Assembly: GCA_027623675.1 (NCBI GenBank)
Contig: JAQBVF010000005.1
Coordinates: forward strand, 1-64,000
Origin: Chloroflexota bacterium
GTDB taxonomy: Bacteria; Chloroflexota; Dehalococcoidia; Lucifugimonadales; UBA3495
Direction of reading: 5' to 3'
Length of the DNA: 64,000 nucleotides
Shown: piece after piece, positions 53,999 through 62,756 of the stretch
How positions within the stretch are numbered: the first letter of the stretch is position 1
Layout of the letters: every line of letters starts with the position of its first letter
Notes under the pieces: generated by a model
Databases searched by the model: none
What the model saw: the letters and a program-made list of their open reading frames with translations, nothing else
What the model was told of the DNA's origin: nothing
Program-made: the position numbers and the translations under genes

Positions 53999-55756
53999 AT
54001 GGCAATAGGAATCAAGACCTACCGTCCCACAGTTTCGGGTGTGACCCACATGGTCACGGCCGGGCATTACCTGGCCACTGCATCGGGTTACCGGATACTG
54101 GAGCAGGGCGGCAATGCCACCGACGCCGGCGTGGCAGCGGGGATCACGCTGAACGTGGTGCTTCCCCAGTGGACCAACTTTGGCGGCGTGGCTCCCATCA
54201 TCATCCACGACGCCCAGAAGCAGGAAACGGTGTCGATCAGCGGTCTCGGCCGCTGGCCCAAGGCAGCCAACATTGACGACTACCTGGCCAAGTTTGGCGG
54301 CGACCTGCCACCGGGCATCCCGCGAACGGTCACCCCCGCCGGCGCCGACGCCTGGATGACCGCCCTGAAACTCTACGGGACCATGACCTTCGAGCAGGCG
54401 GTCACGCCAGCCATGGAACTGGCCGAACAGGGCTTCCCGGTCCCAACCACCCTGGCGTCGTACCTGGAGAAGACCGGCGACGACCTGACCCACGAGTCCA
54501 GCGGCCAGCCGCAATGGCCTTCCACCGCCGAGATCTTCTTCCCCGGCGGCCGAAGCTTCAAGACTGGCGAGATACTGGTGCAGACCGACCTGGCCCGCAG
54601 CTTCAAGCGGCTGATCGAGGTGGAGCGGCAGAACGCATCCATGGGACGCGAGGGCGCGATCCAAGCGGCGCGCGATTTCTTCTACAAGGGAGAGATCGCC
54701 GAGGAGATGGTGAAGTTCAACCAGGACAACGGCGGACTTCTAACCATGCAAGACCTGGCCGATTTCCATGTCGGCGTCGAGCCACCAGCCCACGGCACCT
54801 ATAAGGGGATCGATGTCTATACCTGCGGTCCCTGGTGCCAAGGTCCGGTGAGCATCCAGGCCCTGCAGATACTCGAAGGCATGGACCTGCAGGCGATGGG
54901 CCACAATAGCGCGGACTACATCCACTCTCTCGTGGAGGCCATCAACCTGGCCATGAGCGACCGCGAAGCGTACTACGGCGACCCCGATTTCGTGGACGTG
55001 CCCATGGAGGGCTTGCTGTCCAAGTCGTTCGCCGCGGAGCGCCGGGCCATGATCGACCCGAAAAAAGCATTCGGAAAGATGCCCGAGGCCGGGGACCCTT
55101 GGGTCCACCAAGGCATGAGATCGCCCAACGGCAAACCGGCCCAGCCCGAACCGGTGAGCGGCGGACTCCAGGCCGATACCAGCTATACGGCTGTGGTCGA
55201 CCGCTGGGGCAACGCCTTCTCGGCCACCCCCAGCGACACCATCGCCTACAACCCAATCGTGAAAGGCCTGGGATTCATCGTATCCGGACGCGGCTCCCAG
55301 TCGTGGCTCGACCCCAACCACCCCAGCTCATTGCAGCCAGGCAAGCGGCCCCGGCTGACTCCCAACCCGGCGCTGGCGATGAAGGATGGCAAGGTGCTGA
55401 TGCCCTTCGGCACGCCGGGCGGCGACGTGCAGCCCCAGTCCATGGTCCAGCTATTCCTGAACGTGACCGAGTTCGGGATGGAGGTCCAGGAGGCCATTGA
55501 GGCTCCCAGGGTATCCACCTGGAATTTCCCCAACTCCTTCTGGCCCCACGCCTACAATCCGGCATTGGTCGGAGTTGAAGGCCGCATCGCGCCCGAAGTG
55601 GTGGCAGACCTGCGCAAGCGCGGCCACGACGTGGAGGTCTGGAACGACTTCACGCCGCGCATGGGTTGTCTATGCGCCATCCACGTGGACCAGGAACGTG
55701 GCGGCCGCAACGGCGGCGCCGACCCTCGCCGCGACGGCTACGCCATGGGCCGCTAG
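53999..55756 (+). CDS. ggt: gamma-glutamyltransferase family protein
   Basis: GGNATDAGVA, autoprocessing Thr in DTSY, PGKRP, GTPGGD.QPQ, GGADPRRDG. Confidence 0.9.
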   Translation: MAIGIKTYRPTVSGVTHMVTAGHYLATASGYRILEQGGNATDAGVAAGITLNVVLPQWTNFGGVAPIIIHDAQKQETVSISGLGRWPKAANIDDYLAKFGGDLPPGIPRTVTPAGADAWMTALKLYGTMTFEQAVTPAMELAEQGFPVPTTLASYLEKTGDDLTHESSGQPQWPSTAEIFFPGGRSFKTGEILVQTDLARSFKRLIEVERQNASMGREGAIQAARDFFYKGEIAEEMVKFNQDNGGLLTMQDLADFHVGVEPPAHGTYKGIDVYTCGPWCQGPVSIQALQILEGMDLQAMGHNSADYIHSLVEAINLAMSDREAYYGDPDFVDVPMEGLLSKSFAAERRAMIDPKKAFGKMPEAGDPWVHQGMRSPNGKPAQPEPVSGGLQADTSYTAVVDRWGNAFSATPSDTIAYNPIVKGLGFIVSGRGSQSWLDPNHPSSLQPGKRPRLTPNPALAMKDGKVLMPFGTPGGDVQPQSMVQLFLNVTEFGMEVQEAIEAPRVSTWNFPNSFWPHAYNPALVGVEGRIAPEVVADLRKRGHDVEVWNDFTPRMGCLCAIHVDQERGGRNGGADPRRDGYAMGR

Positions 55757-55834
55757 GCGATCCTAGCTGGTTCGAACATAGCGATCAAAAACAGGAGTCA
55801 TCCTGGAGATTGCTGGGGGGATGCCGCCGCCTTG

Positions 55835-56035
55835 GTCATTCCGGCCGCCTTGGTCATTCCGAGCGAAGCGAGGAATCTTGTTGCTGGTGGGAGACCAACT
55901 GCCGGTCCCGCGGAACGATAGCAATCTTGAAGTCAAGCAAAGAGATTCTGATCCTTCCGCGGAAGAATCAGAATGACCGGTAGCGAGGGTGGTTGCTCGG
56001 CACGACCGTCATTTCGCCTTTCGCCGAAATGACGG
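55835..56035. repeat. REP-like palindromic repeat cluster with GTCATT/AATGAC ends
   Basis: GTCATTCCGAGCGAAGCGAGGAATCT (55853-55878); AGATTCTGAT..ATCAGAATGAC (55943-55977); CCGTCATTTCG/CGAAATGACGG stem (56006-56035). Confidence 0.75.
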
Positions 56036-56261
56036 CATCCGCCCAGTAGTGTGCTGCCGGCAATGAAACTTCGGGATAACTCATGCTTTCTATCAACGAT
56101 GGCAGGTGGGCTCGTCCAAGCGACCCCTTCCACCTTTATGGGGCTCGGCCCTAAAGGTCACCGTCGAGGGTTTGAAAGTCGCTTCTACAACGTCACGCTT
56201 CGTCTTTCCTCGAAAGGACGCAGGGACTGCCAAACCGATAGGCAATCGTTCCATGCCACCG

Positions 56262-57010
56262 TTACTCCGCCGTTCGTCCGTCGTCGATGACCAGTTCGGA
56301 GCCGGTTACAAATGACGCTTCGTCGGAGGCGAGGTACAGCGCGCCGTAGGCCACGTCTTCCGGGCGGCCCAGGCGTTTGAGAGGCGTCCGGTTCATGCGG
56401 TCCTCCCGCTGGGTGTCGTCGGCCAGGAAGCCCTCGGTCATGGGCGTTACGATGGTGCCCGGATGCACCGAGTTGGCCCTGATGCCGTCGGCGGCGTACT
56501 GGATGGCCGTCGACTTGGTCAGCAGCCGCACCGCGCCCTTGGATGCCGTGTAGACCGTGGTCTGGCGGCTGCCCACCAGACCAGCCACCGACGAGATGTT
56601 CACGATGGAGCCACCCCCAGCTTGGCGCATGGCGGGGATGACGCTCTTGGTGCCCAAGAACACGCCTTTGGCGTTGATGTCCATCACCTGGTCCCACTCT
56701 GCCGAGCTGGTTTCCTCGACCACGTGGGCGCGGTAGATACCAGCGTTGTTGACCAGGATATCCAACTTGCCGAAGCGGTCCACAGCCTCGTTCACCGCCC
56801 GTTGCCAGGCTGATTCGTCGGTTACGTCCAGCGGCACGAAGACGGTCTCGCCGCCGGCCTCGTTGATCTCGGCCTCCACCTTGCGGCCTTCGTCTTCCAG
56901 CATGTCCCCGATGATCACTTTTGCGCCCTCTTGGCAAAAAGCCTGGCTTCAACCGCGCCCATGCCGCGGGCCCCGCCGCTGATGAGGGCCACCTCATTCT
57001 CCAGTCGCAT
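56262..57010 (-). pseudogene. SDR oxidoreductase with a 1-nt frameshift near 56930; tandem paralogue of 57036-57785
   Basis: ATG 57010 reads MRLENEVALISGGARGMGAVEARLFAK, then the frame breaks (GCCAAGAGGGC versus paralogue GCCAAGGAGGGC); the remainder is intact in the -1 frame. Confidence 0.8.
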
Positions 57011-57035
57011 GTTGTCCTCTCCCGCTAACGTCCGG

Positions 57036-57785
57036 CTATTGGGCGGTCCAGCCGCCGTCGATGACTAACTCGGCCCCGGTGACGAAGGAAGATTCGTCGG
57101 AGGCCAGGTACAGCGCCCCGTAGGCCACGTCCTCCGGTTGACCCAGGCGGGCGAGCGGAGTTGGGTCCACCCGCTCGGCCTTGAACCGGGAATCGGCTAT
57201 GGCCTCGGCGGTCATGTCGGTCTGGATGACGCCGGGGTGGATCGAGTTGGAGCGGATGCCATCGGAGGCGTATTGGATCGCGGTGGACTTGGTGAACAGC
57301 CGCACCGCGCCCTTGGAGGCGCTGTAGGCCGAAGAGTACGCCGCTCCCACCAGGCCGGCCACCGATGACAGGTTGATGATGGAGCCGCCGCCGGCTTGGC
57401 GCATGGCGGGGATGGCGGCTTTGGCGCCCAGGAAAACACCCTTGGCATTGATGTCCATCACCTGGTCCCACTCGTCGGAGCTGGTCTCCTCCACCGGGTG
57501 GGCTCGGAAGATCCCGGCGTTGTTCACCAATACGTCCAGCTTTCCGAATCGGCCAAGGGTGGCGGCCACCGCCTGCTCCCACTGGTCTTCGTCGGTTACG
57601 TCCAGCGGCACGAATAAACACTCGCCGCCCGTCTCGTTGATCTCGGCTTCGACCCGTTTGCCCTCGGCCTCCAGCAGGTCCCCGATGACGATCTTGGCGC
57701 CCTCCTTGGCGAACAGTTTCGCTTCAACCGCGCCCATGCCGCGAGCCCCGCCGCTGATCAGGACCACCTTGTTCTCCAGTCGCAT
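57036..57785 (-). CDS. SDR oxidoreductase (3-alpha/20-beta-hydroxysteroid or cyclopentanol dehydrogenase-like)
   Basis: SGGARGMG, NNAGI, YSASK, NSIHPG; GGAGG before ATG 57785. Confidence 0.92.
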   Translation of the reverse strand: MRLENKVVLISGGARGMGAVEAKLFAKEGAKIVIGDLLEAEGKRVEAEINETGGECLFVPLDVTDEDQWEQAVAATLGRFGKLDVLVNNAGIFRAHPVEETSSDEWDQVMDINAKGVFLGAKAAIPAMRQAGGGSIINLSSVAGLVGAAYSSAYSASKGAVRLFTKSTAIQYASDGIRSNSIHPGVIQTDMTAEAIADSRFKAERVDPTPLARLGQPEDVAYGALYLASDESSFVTGAELVIDGGWTAQ

Positions 57786-57901
57786 CGCGCTCGCCTCCCC
57801 ATGATTACCTGCGGCGATTTTAAAGCCTGCCGGTACATAGTCAAGGGCCGGGCCTCGATTGACCGGTGAATGGGCCGCCGATAGAATGGTTGTTACTTCA
57901 T

Positions 57902-58456
57902 ATGGAACCAGTTCCGGCCACACCCACCTCCGTTGTCACCGCTGCTTTCCCTGTCCGGCTTCGTTATCTACCCGTGGCGCTGGTCTTGGTTGGCATCCTT
58001 TTTCTGCTGGCCTGTGGTTCCGGTGAGCGCGCGCGGGACTTTGAAGTAACCCAATTCGACGGCGCCACCTTCCGGCTGTCCGAGGAAACCAAGAGCCAGG
58101 CGGTGGTGCTGAATTTCTGGTATCCGAGTTGTCCTCCCTGCCGCGAGGAGATGCCCGCCTTTCAGGCTGCGTGGCAGGAACTACAGGGCGAGCCGGTCCG
58201 TTTCTTGAGCCTGTATGTGCCCCAGGGATTCGACTCGGAGCAGGACGCGAGGGCCTTCGTGGAAGAATTCGGCCTGACATTTAGCTTCGCCACCGACCGG
58301 TTGGCCCGCATCGCCCAAGCCTACGGGTTGGAGTATTTCCCCAAGACCTATTTCATTGACACCGACCGCCGGATCGTGGCCGCCAAGATCAGCACTCTGA
58401 AAACCGAGGACATCGTGCGGCAGGTCCGCGCGATGATTGGGGACGAGGAGTCTTAG
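57902..58456 (+). CDS. TlpA-family thiol:disulfide reductase, probable lipoprotein
   Basis: LNFWYPSCPPCREEMP; lipobox LLAC. Confidence 0.88.
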   Translation: MEPVPATPTSVVTAAFPVRLRYLPVALVLVGILFLLACGSGERARDFEVTQFDGATFRLSEETKSQAVVLNFWYPSCPPCREEMPAFQAAWQELQGEPVRFLSLYVPQGFDSEQDARAFVEEFGLTFSFATDRLARIAQAYGLEYFPKTYFIDTDRRIVAAKISTLKTEDIVRQVRAMIGDEES

Positions 58457-58485
58457 GGCACCGTGCCTGCGCTGACGCCCAAAGC

Positions 58486-58971
58486 ATGACCGCCTTAGAT
58501 TGGATACTACTGGCCATCCGCTGGGGACATGCGCTGTCGGCGGTCACCTGGGTCGGCGGGGGAATCTTCTACCTGATGGTTCTGCGGCCGGCCATCCAAA
58601 GAGCACAGGGACTCCCCGCCGACACCAGCCGGGCCATCGGCGTCGAGTTCCGGGGTCTGGTGACCACCGCCATCGCCGTGCTGCTGCTCACCGGGGTAAT
58701 CTTGTCGGTCTCCAGGCTGACCGAGGACGCGGTGACCAGTCCTTACGTGGTAGTGCTGGTGGTCAAGATCGTCCTGGCGCTGTACATGTTCTACGTGGTG
58801 CGTTTCATGCGCCAGGACAGCTACCCAGAAGAACCTCGTCAGGCGGCCGGCGGCTGGCAGCGGCTTCGCGACCGCTTGACCGGCACCACCGCCGTATTGG
58901 TCATCGGCATAGCGGTGATAGGATTATCTGACGTGCTGGACGGTCTCTTGGAGAACGCGCTGGTTTCATAG
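58486..58971 (+). CDS. CopD-like membrane protein
   Basis: RWGHALSAVTWVGGGIF; four TM segments. Confidence 0.7.
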   Translation: MTALDWILLAIRWGHALSAVTWVGGGIFYLMVLRPAIQRAQGLPADTSRAIGVEFRGLVTTAIAVLLLTGVILSVSRLTEDAVTSPYVVVLVVKIVLALYMFYVVRFMRQDSYPEEPRQAAGGWQRLRDRLTGTTAVLVIGIAVIGLSDVLDGLLENALVS

Positions 58972-59212: not shown

Positions 59213-59256
59213 GAAAGGCCCCCGGAACCATCAAGTTCCGAGGGCCTTTCTTTTTT
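59213..59256. terminator. intrinsic terminator between convergent operons
   Basis: GAAAGGCCC.CGGAAC/GTTCCG.GGGCCTTTC followed by TTTTTT. Confidence 0.85.
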
Positions 59257-59272
59257 CGAATTTGGCTTACGC

Positions 59273-59812
59273 CTAGCCCTCGCCGGTCAATACGCGGACA
59301 ACCTGAGGGGCCAGCTCTTCAGCCCTGGTTCGCAGGGCCTCCCGGGACAGGTTCTCTATGGGGTGCGGAGTGAAGATGGTCGGGTAATCGGGCGCTCCCC
59401 ACATCTTGGCCATGCCCTGGGCCGTCGGCACGAACCGGTCGGTGCAGATGGTGGCCGATGGTATGCCGGCATTCTCCACGTGGATCCCGTCGTGCACACT
59501 GCACGCACTGCAGGACCCTCAATCACCTATCGCGATGACCACCGAGTCTACTTTCTCGGTCAATTCCTTCAGGGCTGTCGGGTCGGCTGCTTTGGAGGCG
59601 CTGGGCTTCCGGTGCCAGATTACCTCGGTTATCTCATAGCGCGTCCGCAGTACCTCGGCGAGTTCCTCCAGAAGCACGTCCGCGTTGCGCTTGCTGTCGT
59701 CGATGATTCCCAACCGGGTTCCGGCCAGGCTGGCCAGCCGGGGCGCTCCGTCGAAGGGGGCGATTATGGGTTGGGTGACCGGGTTGACCAGTACATGTTC
59801 GCTCTGGGCCAT
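59273..59812 (-). CDS. UGSC-family selenoprotein (179 aa; TGA at 59521-59519 read as Sec), GrdB/PrdB-like active site
   Basis: The ORFs 59519-59812 and 59273-59497 are one frame: VVIAIGD-U-GSCSACSVHDG..ENAGIPSATICT..PHP; SECIS-like hairpin follows the TGA. Confidence 0.88.
59482..59518 (-). promoter_or_regulatory. putative bacterial SECIS element
   Basis: After UGA: lower stem GGGUCC/GGAUCC, internal loop, upper stem CGUGCA/UGCACG with a G-containing apical loop about 20 nt from the UGA. Confidence 0.65.
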
Positions 59813-59893
59813 TTGGTTCCCTCTCTATGCGCCCCGGGGGGCGGGTTAGTAGGATTGTCGCAATCTCGAGATGAAATAGCAACGGGCTGGGCG

Positions 59894-60502
59894 CTATTCG
59901 CTGGAATATTCGAAGGGGCAGAACTCCCCGTATTTGCCAGGGAAGTTGAGCTTTAGCCCTTCACCTTCAAACCTGAATGCACTCGTGGTGCAAAGCTCTT
60001 GAATCTTGGAGGTGAATCCGGTGGGTTTGTTGAGGACCGCTAATCCATCCTCGCCGGTCACCGGGTTCTTCATGGGAGAAAGTTGCATCTCGTAGATCCC
60101 ACCTATGATTACGCGGCTATGGATGCCATTCAGTTCCACCTGGAAGGGAACGTATCTAAACCCTAAGAAGTTGGTCGTCAGGTCGAGGAACACACTGAAG
60201 GGCGCTTCTTGTTTAATCATTGATTCGATGGAGGACCGTTGTTTCGCGTCGGCTTTCTCGTCTATCAGCCAAACCGCCGTGCCGTTGCCCAGATGGACGG
60301 CTTCAGGAAAGATGGACACCTCCCCAAAGGTAACGCCGTTCAGGTCAACGCCGTTGTAATGCCCAGTGTCAACATTCCAGATGTACGAGCCCTCGCATGG
60401 CCCGTAGGACGGTGGCTCCTCAAAGTTACACGGGCAACCCCAGGCGCAGTTACAGGCGGCCAACAGGCTGCCCTTCAGATGATGGGGCCGGTGAGAAGTC
60501 AA
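59894..60502 (-). CDS. DUF1326 domain-containing Cys-rich protein
   Basis: N-terminal CNC..GCPC..P..GPCEG; G.YNGVDL.G; more AT-rich than flanking genes. Confidence 0.82.
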   Translation of the reverse strand: MTSHRPHHLKGSLLAACNCAWGCPCNFEEPPSYGPCEGSYIWNVDTGHYNGVDLNGVTFGEVSIFPEAVHLGNGTAVWLIDEKADAKQRSSIESMIKQEAPFSVFLDLTTNFLGFRYVPFQVELNGIHSRVIIGGIYEMQLSPMKNPVTGEDGLAVLNKPTGFTSKIQELCTTSAFRFEGEGLKLNFPGKYGEFCPFEYSSE

Positions 60503-60517
60503 CGGGCGGTTTACTTC

Positions 60518-61576
60518 CTATCTGATGAGCTTGGTCACGGCGGTGCTGCCGACCTTGGGACCCCAACTGGGGATCACCGATGACATGTTGGATTCCTCAC
60601 CGCCGGCGAAGATCAGCAGGATGTCGTCAGGCTCCGGGATGAGCGAAATCATGGTCTCAGCGTCGCCGGGTTCGGGGTCTCCCTTCAAGACCATGGCCGC
60701 TTTCAGGTCGGCCACGGAGCGTTGGGTGCGGGCGTGGACGAATTCCCTGACCTGGGCTTTGGTCCAGTCCTTCCAGAGGTTGGAGTTGCCGGCGATGGTC
60801 ACCACGATCTGCCCCTGGCGGACGCCGATGCCGGTATCGCCCACGGAGCCGGAGGTGGACATGTTGCTCCCCAAACTGGATGCCACGTCGGATAGGGCGA
60901 TCAGGATGGGCTCGGGGTGGCCCACCGCCCTGACCTGGCGGGGGGACTCACCGGCGAACACGGTCACCGTGCTCTGGTCGGCCGAGAAGCCGCGTTCGAC
61001 GTGGAGTGGCGTCCAATGCGTCTCGGTGTCGGCCTCGGCGATGCAGTACGTGTATTTGCCCGGATGTCCGATGACACTGCGGTCGAACACGCCGGGGATG
61101 GCGGCGCAGGCGTTCATCAACACCAGCCGCACGGCCCGGCCGATGGTGGCGTTGGCCCGGTTGCCTGGGCCGAACAGGTTGTTTCGCGAATTGATGTTCA
61201 GTTCTTTGCAGATGGGGCCGTTCACGATGGACAAGATGGCGGAGCCGCCCATGCTGGATGACGGACCCACCAGGTTGAACACCGGGTCCAACATGGCTTC
61301 GGTGGCGGTCAACAAGACCGGCATGTACTCGGGCAGGCACCCGGCCATGACCGCGTTGGCGGCCACCTTGGCCACGGTTATCTCGCGGCGGCGCTCCGGA
61401 ATCTCTCCGACCACTTCCTCGCCGGGCCGGCCGGAACGCTCGATGAATTCTCCCACCCGCTGTTCCGTGGGCGGGACCACCGGCAATCCGTCGGTCCAAC
61501 CCAGTTCATAGCAGCGCTCGATGGCCTCCAAGGCCGAGTCCCATTGCACAGTTGTTGTATCGCCCGAATCCGGCAA
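60518..61576 (-). CDS. conserved hypothetical protein (TDGLPVVPPT family), probable UGSC partner
   Basis: GWTDGLPVVPPT, NAVMAGC.PEY.PV, VNGP, GNRANATIGRA, G.PGKY, W.PLHVERG; GGAGG before TTG. Confidence 0.85.
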   Translation of the reverse strand: MPDSGDTTTVQWDSALEAIERCYELGWTDGLPVVPPTEQRVGEFIERSGRPGEEVVGEIPERRREITVAKVAANAVMAGCLPEYMPVLLTATEAMLDPVFNLVGPSSSMGGSAILSIVNGPICKELNINSRNNLFGPGNRANATIGRAVRLVLMNACAAIPGVFDRSVIGHPGKYTYCIAEADTETHWTPLHVERGFSADQSTVTVFAGESPRQVRAVGHPEPILIALSDVASSLGSNMSTSGSVGDTGIGVRQGQIVVTIAGNSNLWKDWTKAQVREFVHARTQRSVADLKAAMVLKGDPEPGDAETMISLIPEPDDILLIFAGGEESNMSSVIPSWGPKVGSTAVTKLIR

Positions 61577-61669
61577 GGTAGGTTTCCTCCGATATAGTGC
61601 CGCCGGGGTCCGGCGGCCTTCACTTCCCGTTTGAGAAGCTGGCCAGCAACGGGAAGCCGGCCAGCGACC

Positions 61670-61704: not shown

Positions 61705-61808
61705 TTTGATGTTGTGTCAACCAAACCCCTCGCTGCACTCGCGGCCATATGGGTGTGGCCGCTTGGGCAGCGGGTGTTTAGTACGGGGCTGCTGTGATCA
61801 GCCGCCGG

Positions 61809-62756
61809 CTATTTGGCTAGGGTGTACTTGGACAGCGAGCGCAGTTCCTTGGGCGGGTTCATGTGGGAGCCGCGGATGGTGAACGAAACCTCGGCCACAT
61901 AGATCGAACCCTGGGAGTCGACGGCGATGCCGTGGGGGGCGATGAATTGTCCGGGACCTTCCCCCTCATTCTTGTCGCCGAACTGGCTGACCAGGTTGCC
62001 CTTCAGGTCGAAGATGGAAACGCGGTGGCCCAGTCCGGGGGCATCGTCCACGCCGCCCATGCCGTTCAACTCGCCGACGTAGATATGCTCGCCCCAGAGG
62101 ACCATGGAGTCGGGCCGGTGGATGTTGCTCCACATGGTCTGGAACTTGCCATCGGTGTCGAAGATCTGGATGCGGTGGGCTTCCCGGTCGACCACGTAGA
62201 CGTTGGCGTCGCTGTCGATGGCGATGTTGTGGGGGCGGATGAACTGACCGGCGTCGATGCCGGGGCTGCCCCAGGAGAACTTGTACTCGCCGGCGCCGGT
62301 GTAGACGTGGATGCGGGAGTTGCCGTAGCCGTCTGACACGTAAACGTCGCCGTTTCCGGGATGGATGGCGGCGGAGGTAGGCCGGTTGAATGGTTCACCG
62401 CTCCAGCGGGGGGACGGGTTATTACGCTCACCGATCTCCATCAGCTTTTCGCCGGCGGCGCTGAATTTCTGGATGGTGTGGATGCCGTCGTCGGCGCATA
62501 GAAGCGAGTCGTCGTGGGCGATGTACAGGCCGTGTGTCCGGTCGGCGCTGAAATGGCCCTGGCCGAAGGACCGGACGTAGTTGCCGTCGCGGTCCAGAAC
62601 GATTATCGGTTCTTCGCCGCGGGTGAGGACGAATACGTTGTCATTGGAGTCGATGGCTACGCCAGGGCACTCTTTGAAGGTCATGCCGCTTGGCAACTTG
62701 GCCCAGTCTTTGACGAAGTTGTAGCGGAAATCTCCAATACCGTATACCTCGGGCAT
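61809..62756 (-). CDS. NHL-repeat beta-propeller protein (PAL amidating-lyase-like)
   Basis: Repeated P.(G/N)IA.D motifs; VSDGYGNSRIH, GQFIRPHNI, DREAHRIQIF. Confidence 0.88.
   Translation of the reverse strand: MPEVYGIGDFRYNFVKDWAKLPSGMTFKECPGVAIDSNDNVFVLTRGEEPIIVLDRDGNYVRSFGQGHFSADRTHGLYIAHDDSLLCADDGIHTIQKFSAAGEKLMEIGERNNPSPRWSGEPFNRPTSAAIHPGNGDVYVSDGYGNSRIHVYTGAGEYKFSWGSPGIDAGQFIRPHNIAIDSDANVYVVDREAHRIQIFDTDGKFQTMWSNIHRPDSMVLWGEHIYVGELNGMGGVDDAPGLGHRVSIFDLKGNLVSQFGDKNEGEGPGQFIAPHGIAVDSQGSIYVAEVSFTIRGSHMNPPKELRSLSKYTLAK

What the first reader, a model, noticed from the sequence alone, without database searches (positions are those of the whole stretch)
59273..61576. Candidate uncharacterised selenium-dependent redox system: TDGLP protein + DUF1326 + UGSC selenoprotein
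Seen: three co-oriented genes with gaps of 15 and 81 nt that end at one terminator. They encode a 352-aa protein with enzyme-like conserved motifs, a Cys-rich DUF1326 protein (CNC..CPC..C, a plausible metal site) and the Sec protein. From my recall of annotations, the TDGLPVVPPT family often sits next to UGSC genes, and I know of no function for any of the three. Inference: a multi-subunit reductase or lyase. The TDGLP protein may supply substrate binding (analogous to the GrdE/PrdA role beside GrdB/PrdB) and Sec the nucleophile, possibly for C-N or C-S bond cleavage. No grdA/C/D or prdA is present in the window.
Basis: partly seen in the sequence, partly recalled or inferred. Interest (0 to 1): 0.85.

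Follow-up and report, generated by a model that had tools for sequence, protein, structure and literature searches.

The report
Selenoenzyme pair with passenger peroxidase gene
A marine bacterium encodes a known but unexplained selenium-containing protein next to its near-constant unnamed partner, and the two likely form one thioredoxin-fed reductase of unknown substrate, while the gene between them is a dispensable local insertion whose family includes one reported peroxidase.

Summary
Observation confirmed: three co-oriented genes, gaps 15 and 81 nt, one hairpin terminator. The UGA is very likely selenocysteine: SelA/B/D and tRNA-Sec are present, and a covarying SECIS hairpin is kept in 89/89 Sec genes versus 16/69 Cys genes. 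The system has two parts, not three. UGSC and the TDGLP protein are adjacent or fused in 8/8 copies in this SAR202-type genome, 66/80 GTDB loci and 72/80 metagenome loci; the fusion was already published in 2008 (UGSC/'Unknown_1'). DUF1326 sits there in 1/80 and 0/80. Among 18 genus orthologues it is intact in 12, decayed in 3 and absent in 3. Its usual partner is DmdE, and one family member (DmdF) is a reported peroxidase. UGSC's Sec region resembles GrdB/PrdB (hhalign E 1.7e-5); TDGLP shows no GrdE/PrdA homology. A predicted complex (0.75, best control 0.55) docks UGSC's N-terminal arm on the TDGLPVVPPT patch without placing Sec. Thioredoxin-reductase neighbours and redoxin fusions point to a reductase; the substrate is unknown. 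The scan has found this pair before on other DNA, including this three-gene form.

The parts
60518..61576 (-). TDGLP protein ('Unknown_1' of Zhang & Gladyshev 2008), 352 aa; core partner subunit, likely substrate-binding
   Evidence: no Pfam/NCBIfam family; 4,928 clusters at 50% identity; AF2 pLDDT 94; same motif as Unknown_1, compared by eye
61586..61590 (-). Shine-Dalgarno-like GGAGG upstream of the TTG start
   Evidence: sequence
59894..60502 (-). DUF1326 (DmdF-family) gene, 202 aa, CxC-x3-CxC-x10-C; accessory insert, not a core subunit
   Evidence: PMC12992908
59273..59812 (-). UGSC-family selenoprotein, 179 aa, D-U98-G-S-C101; N-terminal arm with invariant Pro11
59519..59521 (-). In-frame UGA read as selenocysteine
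   Evidence: (8/8 paralogues; tRNA-Sec)
59491..59505 (-). SECIS-like hairpin (6-bp stem, GUG loop) starting 14 nt after the UGA
   Evidence: at least 5 of 6 pairs in 89/89 Sec genes vs 16/69 Cys genes; compensatory C-G/G-C swap
59213..59250 (.). Intrinsic-terminator-like hairpin, probably bidirectional
   Evidence: similar hairpin with T-run seen by eye in 7 of 10 loci shown, the window's own included
61809..62756 (-). Context: NHL-repeat beta-propeller gene 233 nt upstream, syntenic across the family; functional link not shown

Best explanation
The UGSC selenoprotein and the neighbouring TDGLP protein are adjacent or fused across many phyla and likely form one two-subunit, thioredoxin-fed reductase, while the DUF1326 gene between them is a dispensable lineage-specific insertion. 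Shown: the gene, the UGA with Sec machinery and SECIS, the pairing, the fusions, and the losses of DUF1326. Predicted: UGSC's N-terminal arm (invariant Pro11) docks on the conserved W27/P35-P36-T37/V41/N74/M77/L151/N155 patch of TDGLP, leaving the UxxC domain tethered. Inferred by analogy with PrdB/GrdB: TDGLP binds a small organic substrate; the selenolate of U98 attacks it and displaces a heteroatom substituent; C101 resolves the adduct to a selenylsulfide, releasing the reduced product; NADPH, thioredoxin reductase and thioredoxin (or a fused redoxin) re-reduce the enzyme. The most likely substrate class (about 25-30%) is an alpha-substituted organic acid activated as a CoA thioester, which would replace the pyruvoyl activation of PrdA/GrdE. 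The eight divergent copies would widen the substrate range, as proposed for other SAR202 paralogue expansions. DUF1326 would at most be a co-transcribed peroxide-protection passenger.
For: Pairing: 8 of 8 UGSC copies in the genome lie within about 1.1 kb of a TDGLP gene, one as a natural fusion. UGSC is near 66 of 80 GTDB TDGLP loci, 64 on the same strand within 1 kb. TDGLP is near 72 of 80 Cys-type UGSC loci, and 33 of 33 with enough flank. 25 of 150 representatives carry UGSC sequence, in both orders (4 of the 25 were in the seed). The fusion was reported in PMC2398784 Fig S1A. Binding: complex score 0.75, best of 3 controls 0.55; that mark was reached by 116 of 157 solved complexes and 2 of 215 mismatched pairs (only roughly applicable, own alignments); runs agree in at least 76% of contacts, partner pLDDT at least 89. 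The interface includes near-invariant residues. GrdB/PrdB likeness: TIGR01917 E 2.9e-6; hhalign probability 78.5, E 1.7e-5, UxxC in register; C101 in 53 of 54. Electron supply: TrxB-like gene in 16 of 80 metagenome loci and 6 of 12 plasmid regions, including a trxB-trxA-TDGLP-UGSC run; fusions to AhpC/redoxin and ferredoxin-thioredoxin reductase beta. Catabolic context: CoA-transferase III (18 loci), acyl-CoA dehydrogenase (15), SDR (20), TctC (9) among 168 loci. DUF1326 dispensable: 1/80, 0/80, 0/150; intact 12, decayed 3, absent 3 of 18 genus orthologues; 26 of 30 DUF1326 loci have DmdE and none has UGSC or TDGLP.
Against: No biochemical data exist for either subunit. The complex passed at the exact margin (+0.20) and used a natural Cys-type pair from another organism; its confident contacts exclude the catalytic residue. 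The GrdB/PrdB match covers only 85 columns at 15% identity, and UGSC's fold matches are generic alpha/beta/alpha (top Z 10.7). TDGLP is not detectably related to GrdE (hhalign probability 0.6), so the activation chemistry is borrowed by analogy. TrxB linkage was seen only for Cys-type or plasmid loci (0 of 80 GTDB loci, 0 of 8 own paralogue loci), and 9 of the 16 metagenome cases are one clade. 14 of 80 TDGLP loci lack a nearby UGSC, though 5 of 5 such genomes checked have UGSC elsewhere. The neighbours are diverse and single out no substrate.
Confidence: 0.6

Rival explanations
1. The pair is a general thiol-type oxidoreductase that reduces peroxides, sulfoxides or disulfides for redox protection, and DUF1326 joined as a second peroxide-removing gene.
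For: UxxC motif; TrxB and redoxin links; DmdF consumes H2O2 (PMC12992908); a GSHPx gene beside 3 loci; the 2008 paper assumed a Trx-like redox role.
Against: The UGSC model is flavodoxin/Rossmann-like, with no thioredoxin among the listed top matches. Eight paralogues at 25-40% identity sit in catabolic operons with LysR/GntR regulators and transporters, which fits substrate-specific catabolism better than housekeeping. A 350-aa conserved partner is not needed for such chemistry.
Confidence: 0.2
2. The pair is a non-redox lyase, hydratase or isomerase in which Sec/Cys and TDGLP's conserved C80 and C178 bind a metal or Fe-S cluster.
For: TDGLP's best, weak structural match is the class I fumarate hydratase alpha subunit (Z 4.9, rmsd 5.7, 174 aligned); C80 is in 89/92 and C178 in 88/92; some neighbours are MmgE/PrpD, aconitase or isocitrate-lyase-like.
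Against: Z 4.9 is within the tool's background range; a conserved resolving Cys and TrxB/redoxin links favour redox turnover; the GrdB/PrdB likeness of the Sec region.
Confidence: 0.1
3. One reading: a three-subunit reductase or lyase in which DUF1326 supplies an essential metal site.
For: Tight spacing and one terminator; intact in 12 of 18 genus orthologues and in one other genus; dN below dS, so still under purifying selection.
Against: Present at 1 of 80 and 0 of 80 loci, and at none of the 7 other UGSC copies in this genome. Losses fall in three separate subclades, and three more copies carry several lesions each while the flanking genes are intact. Identity is 53-69% versus 89-94% for the neighbours; GC3 is 0.67 versus 0.78-0.85. 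Unrelated genes occupy the same slot elsewhere.
Confidence: 0.05

Closest known systems
UGSC-containing selenoprotein (Pfam PF24696, NCBIfam NF041046) and the UGSC/Unknown_1 fusion of Zhang & Gladyshev 2008 (PMC2398784, Fig S1A)
   Same: The window's Sec protein is a full member; the TDGLP protein carries the same AVNAVMAGC-x-PEY block as Unknown_1 (compared by eye).
   Different: Here the genes are separate, with an insert between them. The paper noted only the fusion, guessed a Trx-like fold (the model here is flavodoxin/Rossmann-like) and said Unknown_1 was rare (4,928 clusters here). No function is reported in the papers read.
D-proline reductase PrdB/PrdA and glycine/sarcosine/betaine reductase protein B (GrdB/GrdE)
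   Same: Sec in a UxxC motif after a beta strand, with weak but in-register sequence likeness; a small Sec subunit paired with a larger partner; thiol-based re-reduction (PMC11229817 introduction).
   Different: The partner is not detectably GrdE/PrdA; no evidence of a pyruvoyl cleavage; no GrdA or GrdE/PrdA found in this genome; UGSC lacks most of GrdB; substrate unknown.
DmdF peroxidase of Ruegeria lacuscaerulensis (DUF1326; PMC12992908)
   Same: Same Pfam family, with a Cys-rich N-terminus.
   Different: No DmdE (DUF2182) gene beside this copy (the genome's DmdE lies beside another copy on C39); no DMSP gene context recognised; activity untested; the paper notes that dmdEF-like genes outside roseobacters are phylogenetically distinct.

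Membership tests
UGSC family (seleno)protein | Match above the curated cut-offs of PF24696 and NF041046 | tested here: met
   197 bits vs 25; 161.6 vs 125
UGSC family (seleno)protein | UGA recoded as Sec: aligned Cys homologues, SECIS, Sec machinery | tested here: met
   Cys homologues; SECIS 89/89 vs 16/69; selA, selB, selD, tRNA-Sec
UGSC family (seleno)protein | Selenium actually incorporated in the protein | not testable with these tools
   Needs 75Se labelling or mass spectrometry
GrdB/PrdB selenoprotein B | Match above family cut-offs (PF07355, TIGR01917/01918/04483) | tested here: not met
   No PF07355 hit; TIGR01917 26.5 bits vs 602, TIGR01918 24.2 vs 65
GrdB/PrdB selenoprotein B | Homologous Sec-bearing region with UxxC in register | tested here: met
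   hhalign probability 78.5, E 1.7e-5, 85 columns against 19 GrdB/PrdB-like sequences from relatives; moderate strength
Grd/Prd reductase complex | Partner subunit of the GrdE/PrdA family (PF09338) | tested here: not met
   No Pfam hit for TDGLP; hhalign probability 0.6 against only 3 GrdE-like sequences, so very remote homology is not excluded
Grd/Prd reductase complex | Pyruvoyl group formed by cleavage at a Cys | not testable with these tools
   C80 and C178 are conserved but processing cannot be read from sequence
Glycine reductase system | GrdA present in the genome | tested here: not met
   Not found in the 91%-complete genome; found in 3 of 3 control relatives. GrdC/D not searched
DUF1326 / DmdF | Pfam PF07040 match | tested here: met
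   E 1e-39; atlas 30 of 30 hits
DUF1326 / DmdF | Adjacent to dmdE (DUF2182) | tested here: not met
   The only PF09948 gene is on contig C39; 26 of 30 sampled DUF1326 loci have it
DUF1326 / DmdF | Peroxidase activity | not testable with these tools
   Shown only for R. lacuscaerulensis DmdF
Class I fumarate hydratase alpha fold (for TDGLP) | Clear structural match | tested here: inconclusive
   Z 4.9, rmsd 5.7, 174 aligned; Foldseek E 1.3e-3 at best
Thioredoxin fold (for UGSC, as guessed in 2008) | Trx topology | tested here: inconclusive
   Model is five strands with helices; listed top matches are flavodoxin/Rossmann-like

The most novel reading that the evidence does not exclude
UGSC-TDGLP is an undescribed class of pyruvoyl-independent selenoenzyme reductases: a PrdB-like UxxC domain on a tether works against a partner with no clear solved relative, fed by thioredoxin, to strip heteroatom substituents (C-S, C-N, C-O) from organic acids. 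Its 3-12 copies per genome would be a further, overlooked paralogue expansion with which SAR202 bacteria degrade refractory marine organic matter, and would explain one of the most abundant aquatic selenoproteins.
Probability: 0.35. Interest if true: 0.85.

Novelty: new member of a known kind. Interest (0 to 1): 0.5.

Why it matters
UGSC was the fifth most abundant selenoprotein family in the GOS survey (255 sequences; PMC2398784) and is still listed without a function in a 2026 review (PMC13188914). Fixing the minimal unit at two genes, naming the likely electron donor and pointing to Cys-type copies in culturable, harmless hosts makes the function directly testable. Dropping DUF1326 avoids a wrong three-subunit model. 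The paper on SAR202 paralogue expansions read here (PMC6946804) never mentions selenoproteins or UGSC, yet this family has 3-12 copies per genome in all 24 family-level relatives searched.

Tried and rejected
Sequence searches of solved structures gave nothing significant for any of the three proteins or the two profiles. Fold searches of the TDGLP model gave no clear match: no Foldseek hit at E <= 0.001 and no Z >= 5 among 48,161 chains; this does not show a new fold. The protein atlas returned only hypothetical clusters for TDGLP. No RNA holder was listed for the locus, so co-transcription stays untested. A search for longer, fused DUF1326 proteins found none among 801 candidates (weak). Single-sequence folding of the SECIS was uninformative (z -0.3 to -1.9) and gave a different stem; only the comparative test worked. 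The SECIS part had a faulty pattern and was redone. My recollection of a solved proline-reductase structure was not borne out, so no structural comparison with PrdA/PrdB was possible. Literature searches 'UGSC'+'selenoprotein' (9 papers), 'UGSC family' (0), 'DUF1326' (1), 'SAR202'+'selenocysteine' (3, listing only), a SAR202 paralogue query (5) and a selenoprotein-B query (7) showed no functional study of the pair; subscription journals are mostly not covered. DUF1326 was not tested in a complex.
Full report
Observation. The three minus-strand genes are as described: a 352-aa protein with WTDGLPVVPPT (61576-60518), a 202-aa DUF1326 protein (60502-59894) and a 179-aa protein with one in-frame TGA in GD-U-GSC (59812-59273). 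The gaps are 15 and 81 nt, and a 17-pair hairpin follows at 59250-59213. Pfam and NCBIfam assign UGSC (PF24696, NF041046, above cut-off) and DUF1326 (PF07040) and give nothing for the large protein. Its closest homologues, at about 91% identity, are named SAR202/Dehalococcoidia.

The UGA is very likely selenocysteine. The genome has selA, selB, selD and tRNA-Sec. It holds 8 UGSC copies at 25-40% identity to the window's, all with TGA at the same site. A consensus fold of the 8 gives a 6-bp stem with a G-U loop and a C-G/G-C swap in 4 of 8. Among distinct 45-nt segments, at least 5 of the 6 pairs are kept in 89 of 89 Sec genes but only 16 of 69 natural Cys genes; the pair involving a synonymous third position is kept in 89/89 versus 28/69. 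Many of the 89 are related, so this is not 89 independent events. That a G in the apical loop is the SelB signal is recalled knowledge.

The core is two genes. All 8 UGSC copies lie within about 1.1 kb of one of 9 TDGLP genes, and the copy on C46 is one fused frame. Of the best 80 TDGLP loci from GTDB (of 608 confirmed, from 3 of 64 parts scanned), 66 have UGSC within 5 kb, 64 on the same strand within 1 kb; of 70 UGSC copies there, 67 have Sec, 2 Cys and 1 was unparsed. In the reverse test on the best 80 of 161 Cys-type UGSC metagenome loci, 72 have TDGLP, including 33 of 33 with at least 1.2 kb on both sides (some are near duplicates). Of 150 representatives, 25 carry UGSC sequence, 22 before and 3 after TDGLP (4 were in the seed, and Pfam confirms 12). 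The family spans 4,928 clusters at 50% identity and includes haloarchaea. Fourteen GTDB loci have no nearby UGSC; 5 of 5 such genomes checked encode UGSC elsewhere. The link is in print: Zhang & Gladyshev 2008 report a UGSC/'Unknown_1' fusion, and the alignment in their Fig S1A shows the AVNAVMAGC-x-PEY block (PMC2398784; passages and supplement passages seen, compared by eye).

DUF1326 is a passenger. It is present at 1 of the 80 GTDB loci (a same-genus orthologue), 0 of 80 metagenome loci, 0 of 150 representatives and none of the other 7 UGSC loci in this genome. Among 19 same-genus genomes the orthologous locus was found in 18: DUF1326 is intact in 12, broken by several stops, frameshifts or a large deletion in 3, and absent in 3. 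On the TDGLP tree the three absences fall in three subclades, each beside a DUF1326-bearing relative. Outside the genus only 1 of 4 family orthologues has it. In 10 genus orthologues it is 53-69% identical to the window's copy against 89-94% for its neighbours; dN is 0.23-0.37 against 0.04-0.07, and dS is higher or saturated. Its GC3 is 0.67 against 0.78-0.85. It is still under purifying selection where intact, so it is probably useful, but it is not required. Unrelated genes (PaREP1-like and others) occupy the same slot in other genomes. In a phylum sample, 26 of 30 DUF1326 loci (one per genome, of 37 genomes with a match) have DmdE/DUF2182 beside them and none has UGSC or TDGLP; this genome's DmdE is beside a different copy. 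One DUF1326 protein, DmdF, is a reported H2O2-consuming peroxidase needed for DMSP demethylation (PMC12992908; passages and section 13 read).

Structure. Both models are confident (TDGLP pLDDT 94.3, UGSC 93.8). UGSC has an unstructured arm of about 30 residues, then an alpha/beta/alpha domain whose listed matches are flavodoxin/Rossmann-like and generic (top Z 10.7). TDGLP's best match is weak (class I fumarate hydratase alpha, Z 4.9, rmsd 5.7, 174 aligned). A complex was predicted for a natural Cys-type pair (L071, Rhizobiaceae MAG; about 40% identical to the window's TDGLP). It scored 0.75 against a best control of 0.55, exactly at the required margin. That mark was reached by 116 of 157 solved complexes and 2 of 215 mismatched pairs, counts that hold only roughly with my own alignments; runs agree in at least 76% of contacts and partner pLDDT is at least 89. 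No like complex turned up in the structure searches, so memory of a solved pair is an unlikely cause. Confident contacts join UGSC residues 1-13, with the Pro invariant in 54 of 54, to positions equal to window W27, P35-E38, V41, N74, M77, L151 and N155, most of them conserved in 69-89 of 92. Part of the signature motif is therefore a predicted docking site. The catalytic residue was not confidently placed, which is no evidence either way on whether Sec reaches a pocket.

What it works like. UGSC scores weakly against GrdB/PrdB models (TIGR01917 E 2.9e-6, far below cut-off). Its profile aligns to 19 GrdB/PrdB-like proteins from relatives over 85 columns with UxxC in register (probability 78.5, E 1.7e-5). 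TDGLP does not align to three GrdE-like proteins (probability 0.6). GrdA and GrdE/PrdA were not found in this genome, with positive controls in relatives. In Prd, Sec of PrdB attacks the substrate's alpha carbon, which is activated by PrdA's pyruvoyl group (PMC11229817; abstract and introduction read). So this is not a Grd/Prd member, but its Sec domain probably does related chemistry. A TrxB-like gene lies in 16 of 80 Cys-type metagenome loci (about three lineages) and 6 of 12 plasmid regions fetched (of 24 records), but in 0 of 80 GTDB loci and 0 of 8 own paralogue loci. One plasmid has trxB-trxA-TDGLP-UGSC, and TDGLP is fused to AhpC/redoxin or ferredoxin-thioredoxin reductase beta in some representatives. 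The genome has three TrxB-like genes elsewhere. Recurrent neighbours among 168 loci are SDRs (20), CoA-transferases III (18), luciferase-like monooxygenases (16), acyl-CoA dehydrogenases (15), NHL proteins (15), LysR (13), TctC (9) and GntR (9) (one representative per cluster annotated, 73 of 82 clusters; related loci inflate the counts).

Mechanism, with odds. Two-subunit enzyme: about 0.9. Thioredoxin-fed reductase using U98 as nucleophile and C101 as resolving thiol: about 0.6 (inferred). Reductive removal of an alpha-heteroatom from a CoA-activated acid: about 0.25-0.3 (inferred from context and analogy only). Rivals are a general antioxidant oxidoreductase (0.2), a metal-dependent lyase (0.1) and the three-subunit model (0.05).

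Novelty. UGSC is a known family and its fusion to this partner was published in 2008. The 2026 review still lists it as uncharacterised (PMC13188914; passages). PMC1976440 (passages) calls it of unknown function. PMC6946804 on SAR202 expansions has no occurrence of 'seleno' or 'UGSC' in its main text (supplements not checked), while UGSC is in 24 of 24 family-level relatives at 3-12 matches each and 34 of 41 genomes searched. Earlier notes of this scan describe the same pair on many other windows, and this three-gene form with the same verdict; they are unchecked notes and not counted as support. The locus is a new member of a known, unexplained kind. The distinctive feature of this finding, the third gene, is not part of the system. 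Interest 0.5.

Noticed in passing
window 61809-62756 (-): NHL beta-propeller gene 233 nt upstream, 74-96% identical and syntenic across the family, including genomes that lost DUF1326; it matches the PAL lyase domain of peptidylglycine amidating enzyme (3fvz, E 3.8e-18) as well as TRIM NHL domains. Another NHL gene follows the C35 UGSC copy, but the genome has about 13 contigs with NHL paralogues, so this may be chance.
   Followed up: partly
G000 C18:39705-40124, C5:32024-32401, C10:79321-79740 (L119-L121): Three PrdB-like UxxC selenoprotein genes in a genome where no PrdA/GrdE was found; similar genes occur in 23 of 24 family relatives. Their partner and function are unexplained.
   Followed up: partly
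L122-L126, L151-L153 (G018, G009, G006, G021, G028): Some SAR202 relatives carry a full-length GrdB-like gene (U-G-T-S, no resolving Cys); in the three checked it comes with GrdE, GrdA and (in two) a GrdC-like gene, a glycine-reductase-type system unexpected in marine Chloroflexota.
   Followed up: partly
L006 8797-9609 (-) (G000 C20 about 61800-62600): Two short adjacent ORFs that look like a deiodinase-like protein split at a stop codon; possibly another selenoprotein (family named from recall).
   Followed up: no
L012, L013, L015, L017, L021, L022, L112; G000 C26:103059-104144: TDGLP genes with no UGSC within the flank, including a clade 60-64% identical to the window's; their genomes encode UGSC elsewhere, so they may borrow it in trans.
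   Followed up: partly
P0131, P0178, P0206, P0189, P0126, P0129: Other TDGLP fusions: a small CxxC domain with no Pfam hit, a UGSC-TDGLP-ferredoxin-thioredoxin-reductase triple fusion, and tandem double-TDGLP proteins of about 710-740 aa.
   Followed up: partly
L264 and L266 (plasmids NZ_CP012477.1, NZ_CP084884.1); L266, L269, L271: A phosphosulfolactate-synthase-family gene lies near the pair in both an actinobacterium and a haloarchaeon, a possible organosulfur lead; DUF6282 lies near it in three haloarchaeal loci.
   Followed up: no
window 53999-58971: Gamma-glutamyltranspeptidase-like gene, two tandem near-duplicate SDR genes, then a convergent redoxin / CopD-like / Trm112-like run ending at the shared terminator.
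   Followed up: no
G000 C3:53424-54344: SelD itself has an in-frame TGA.
   Followed up: no
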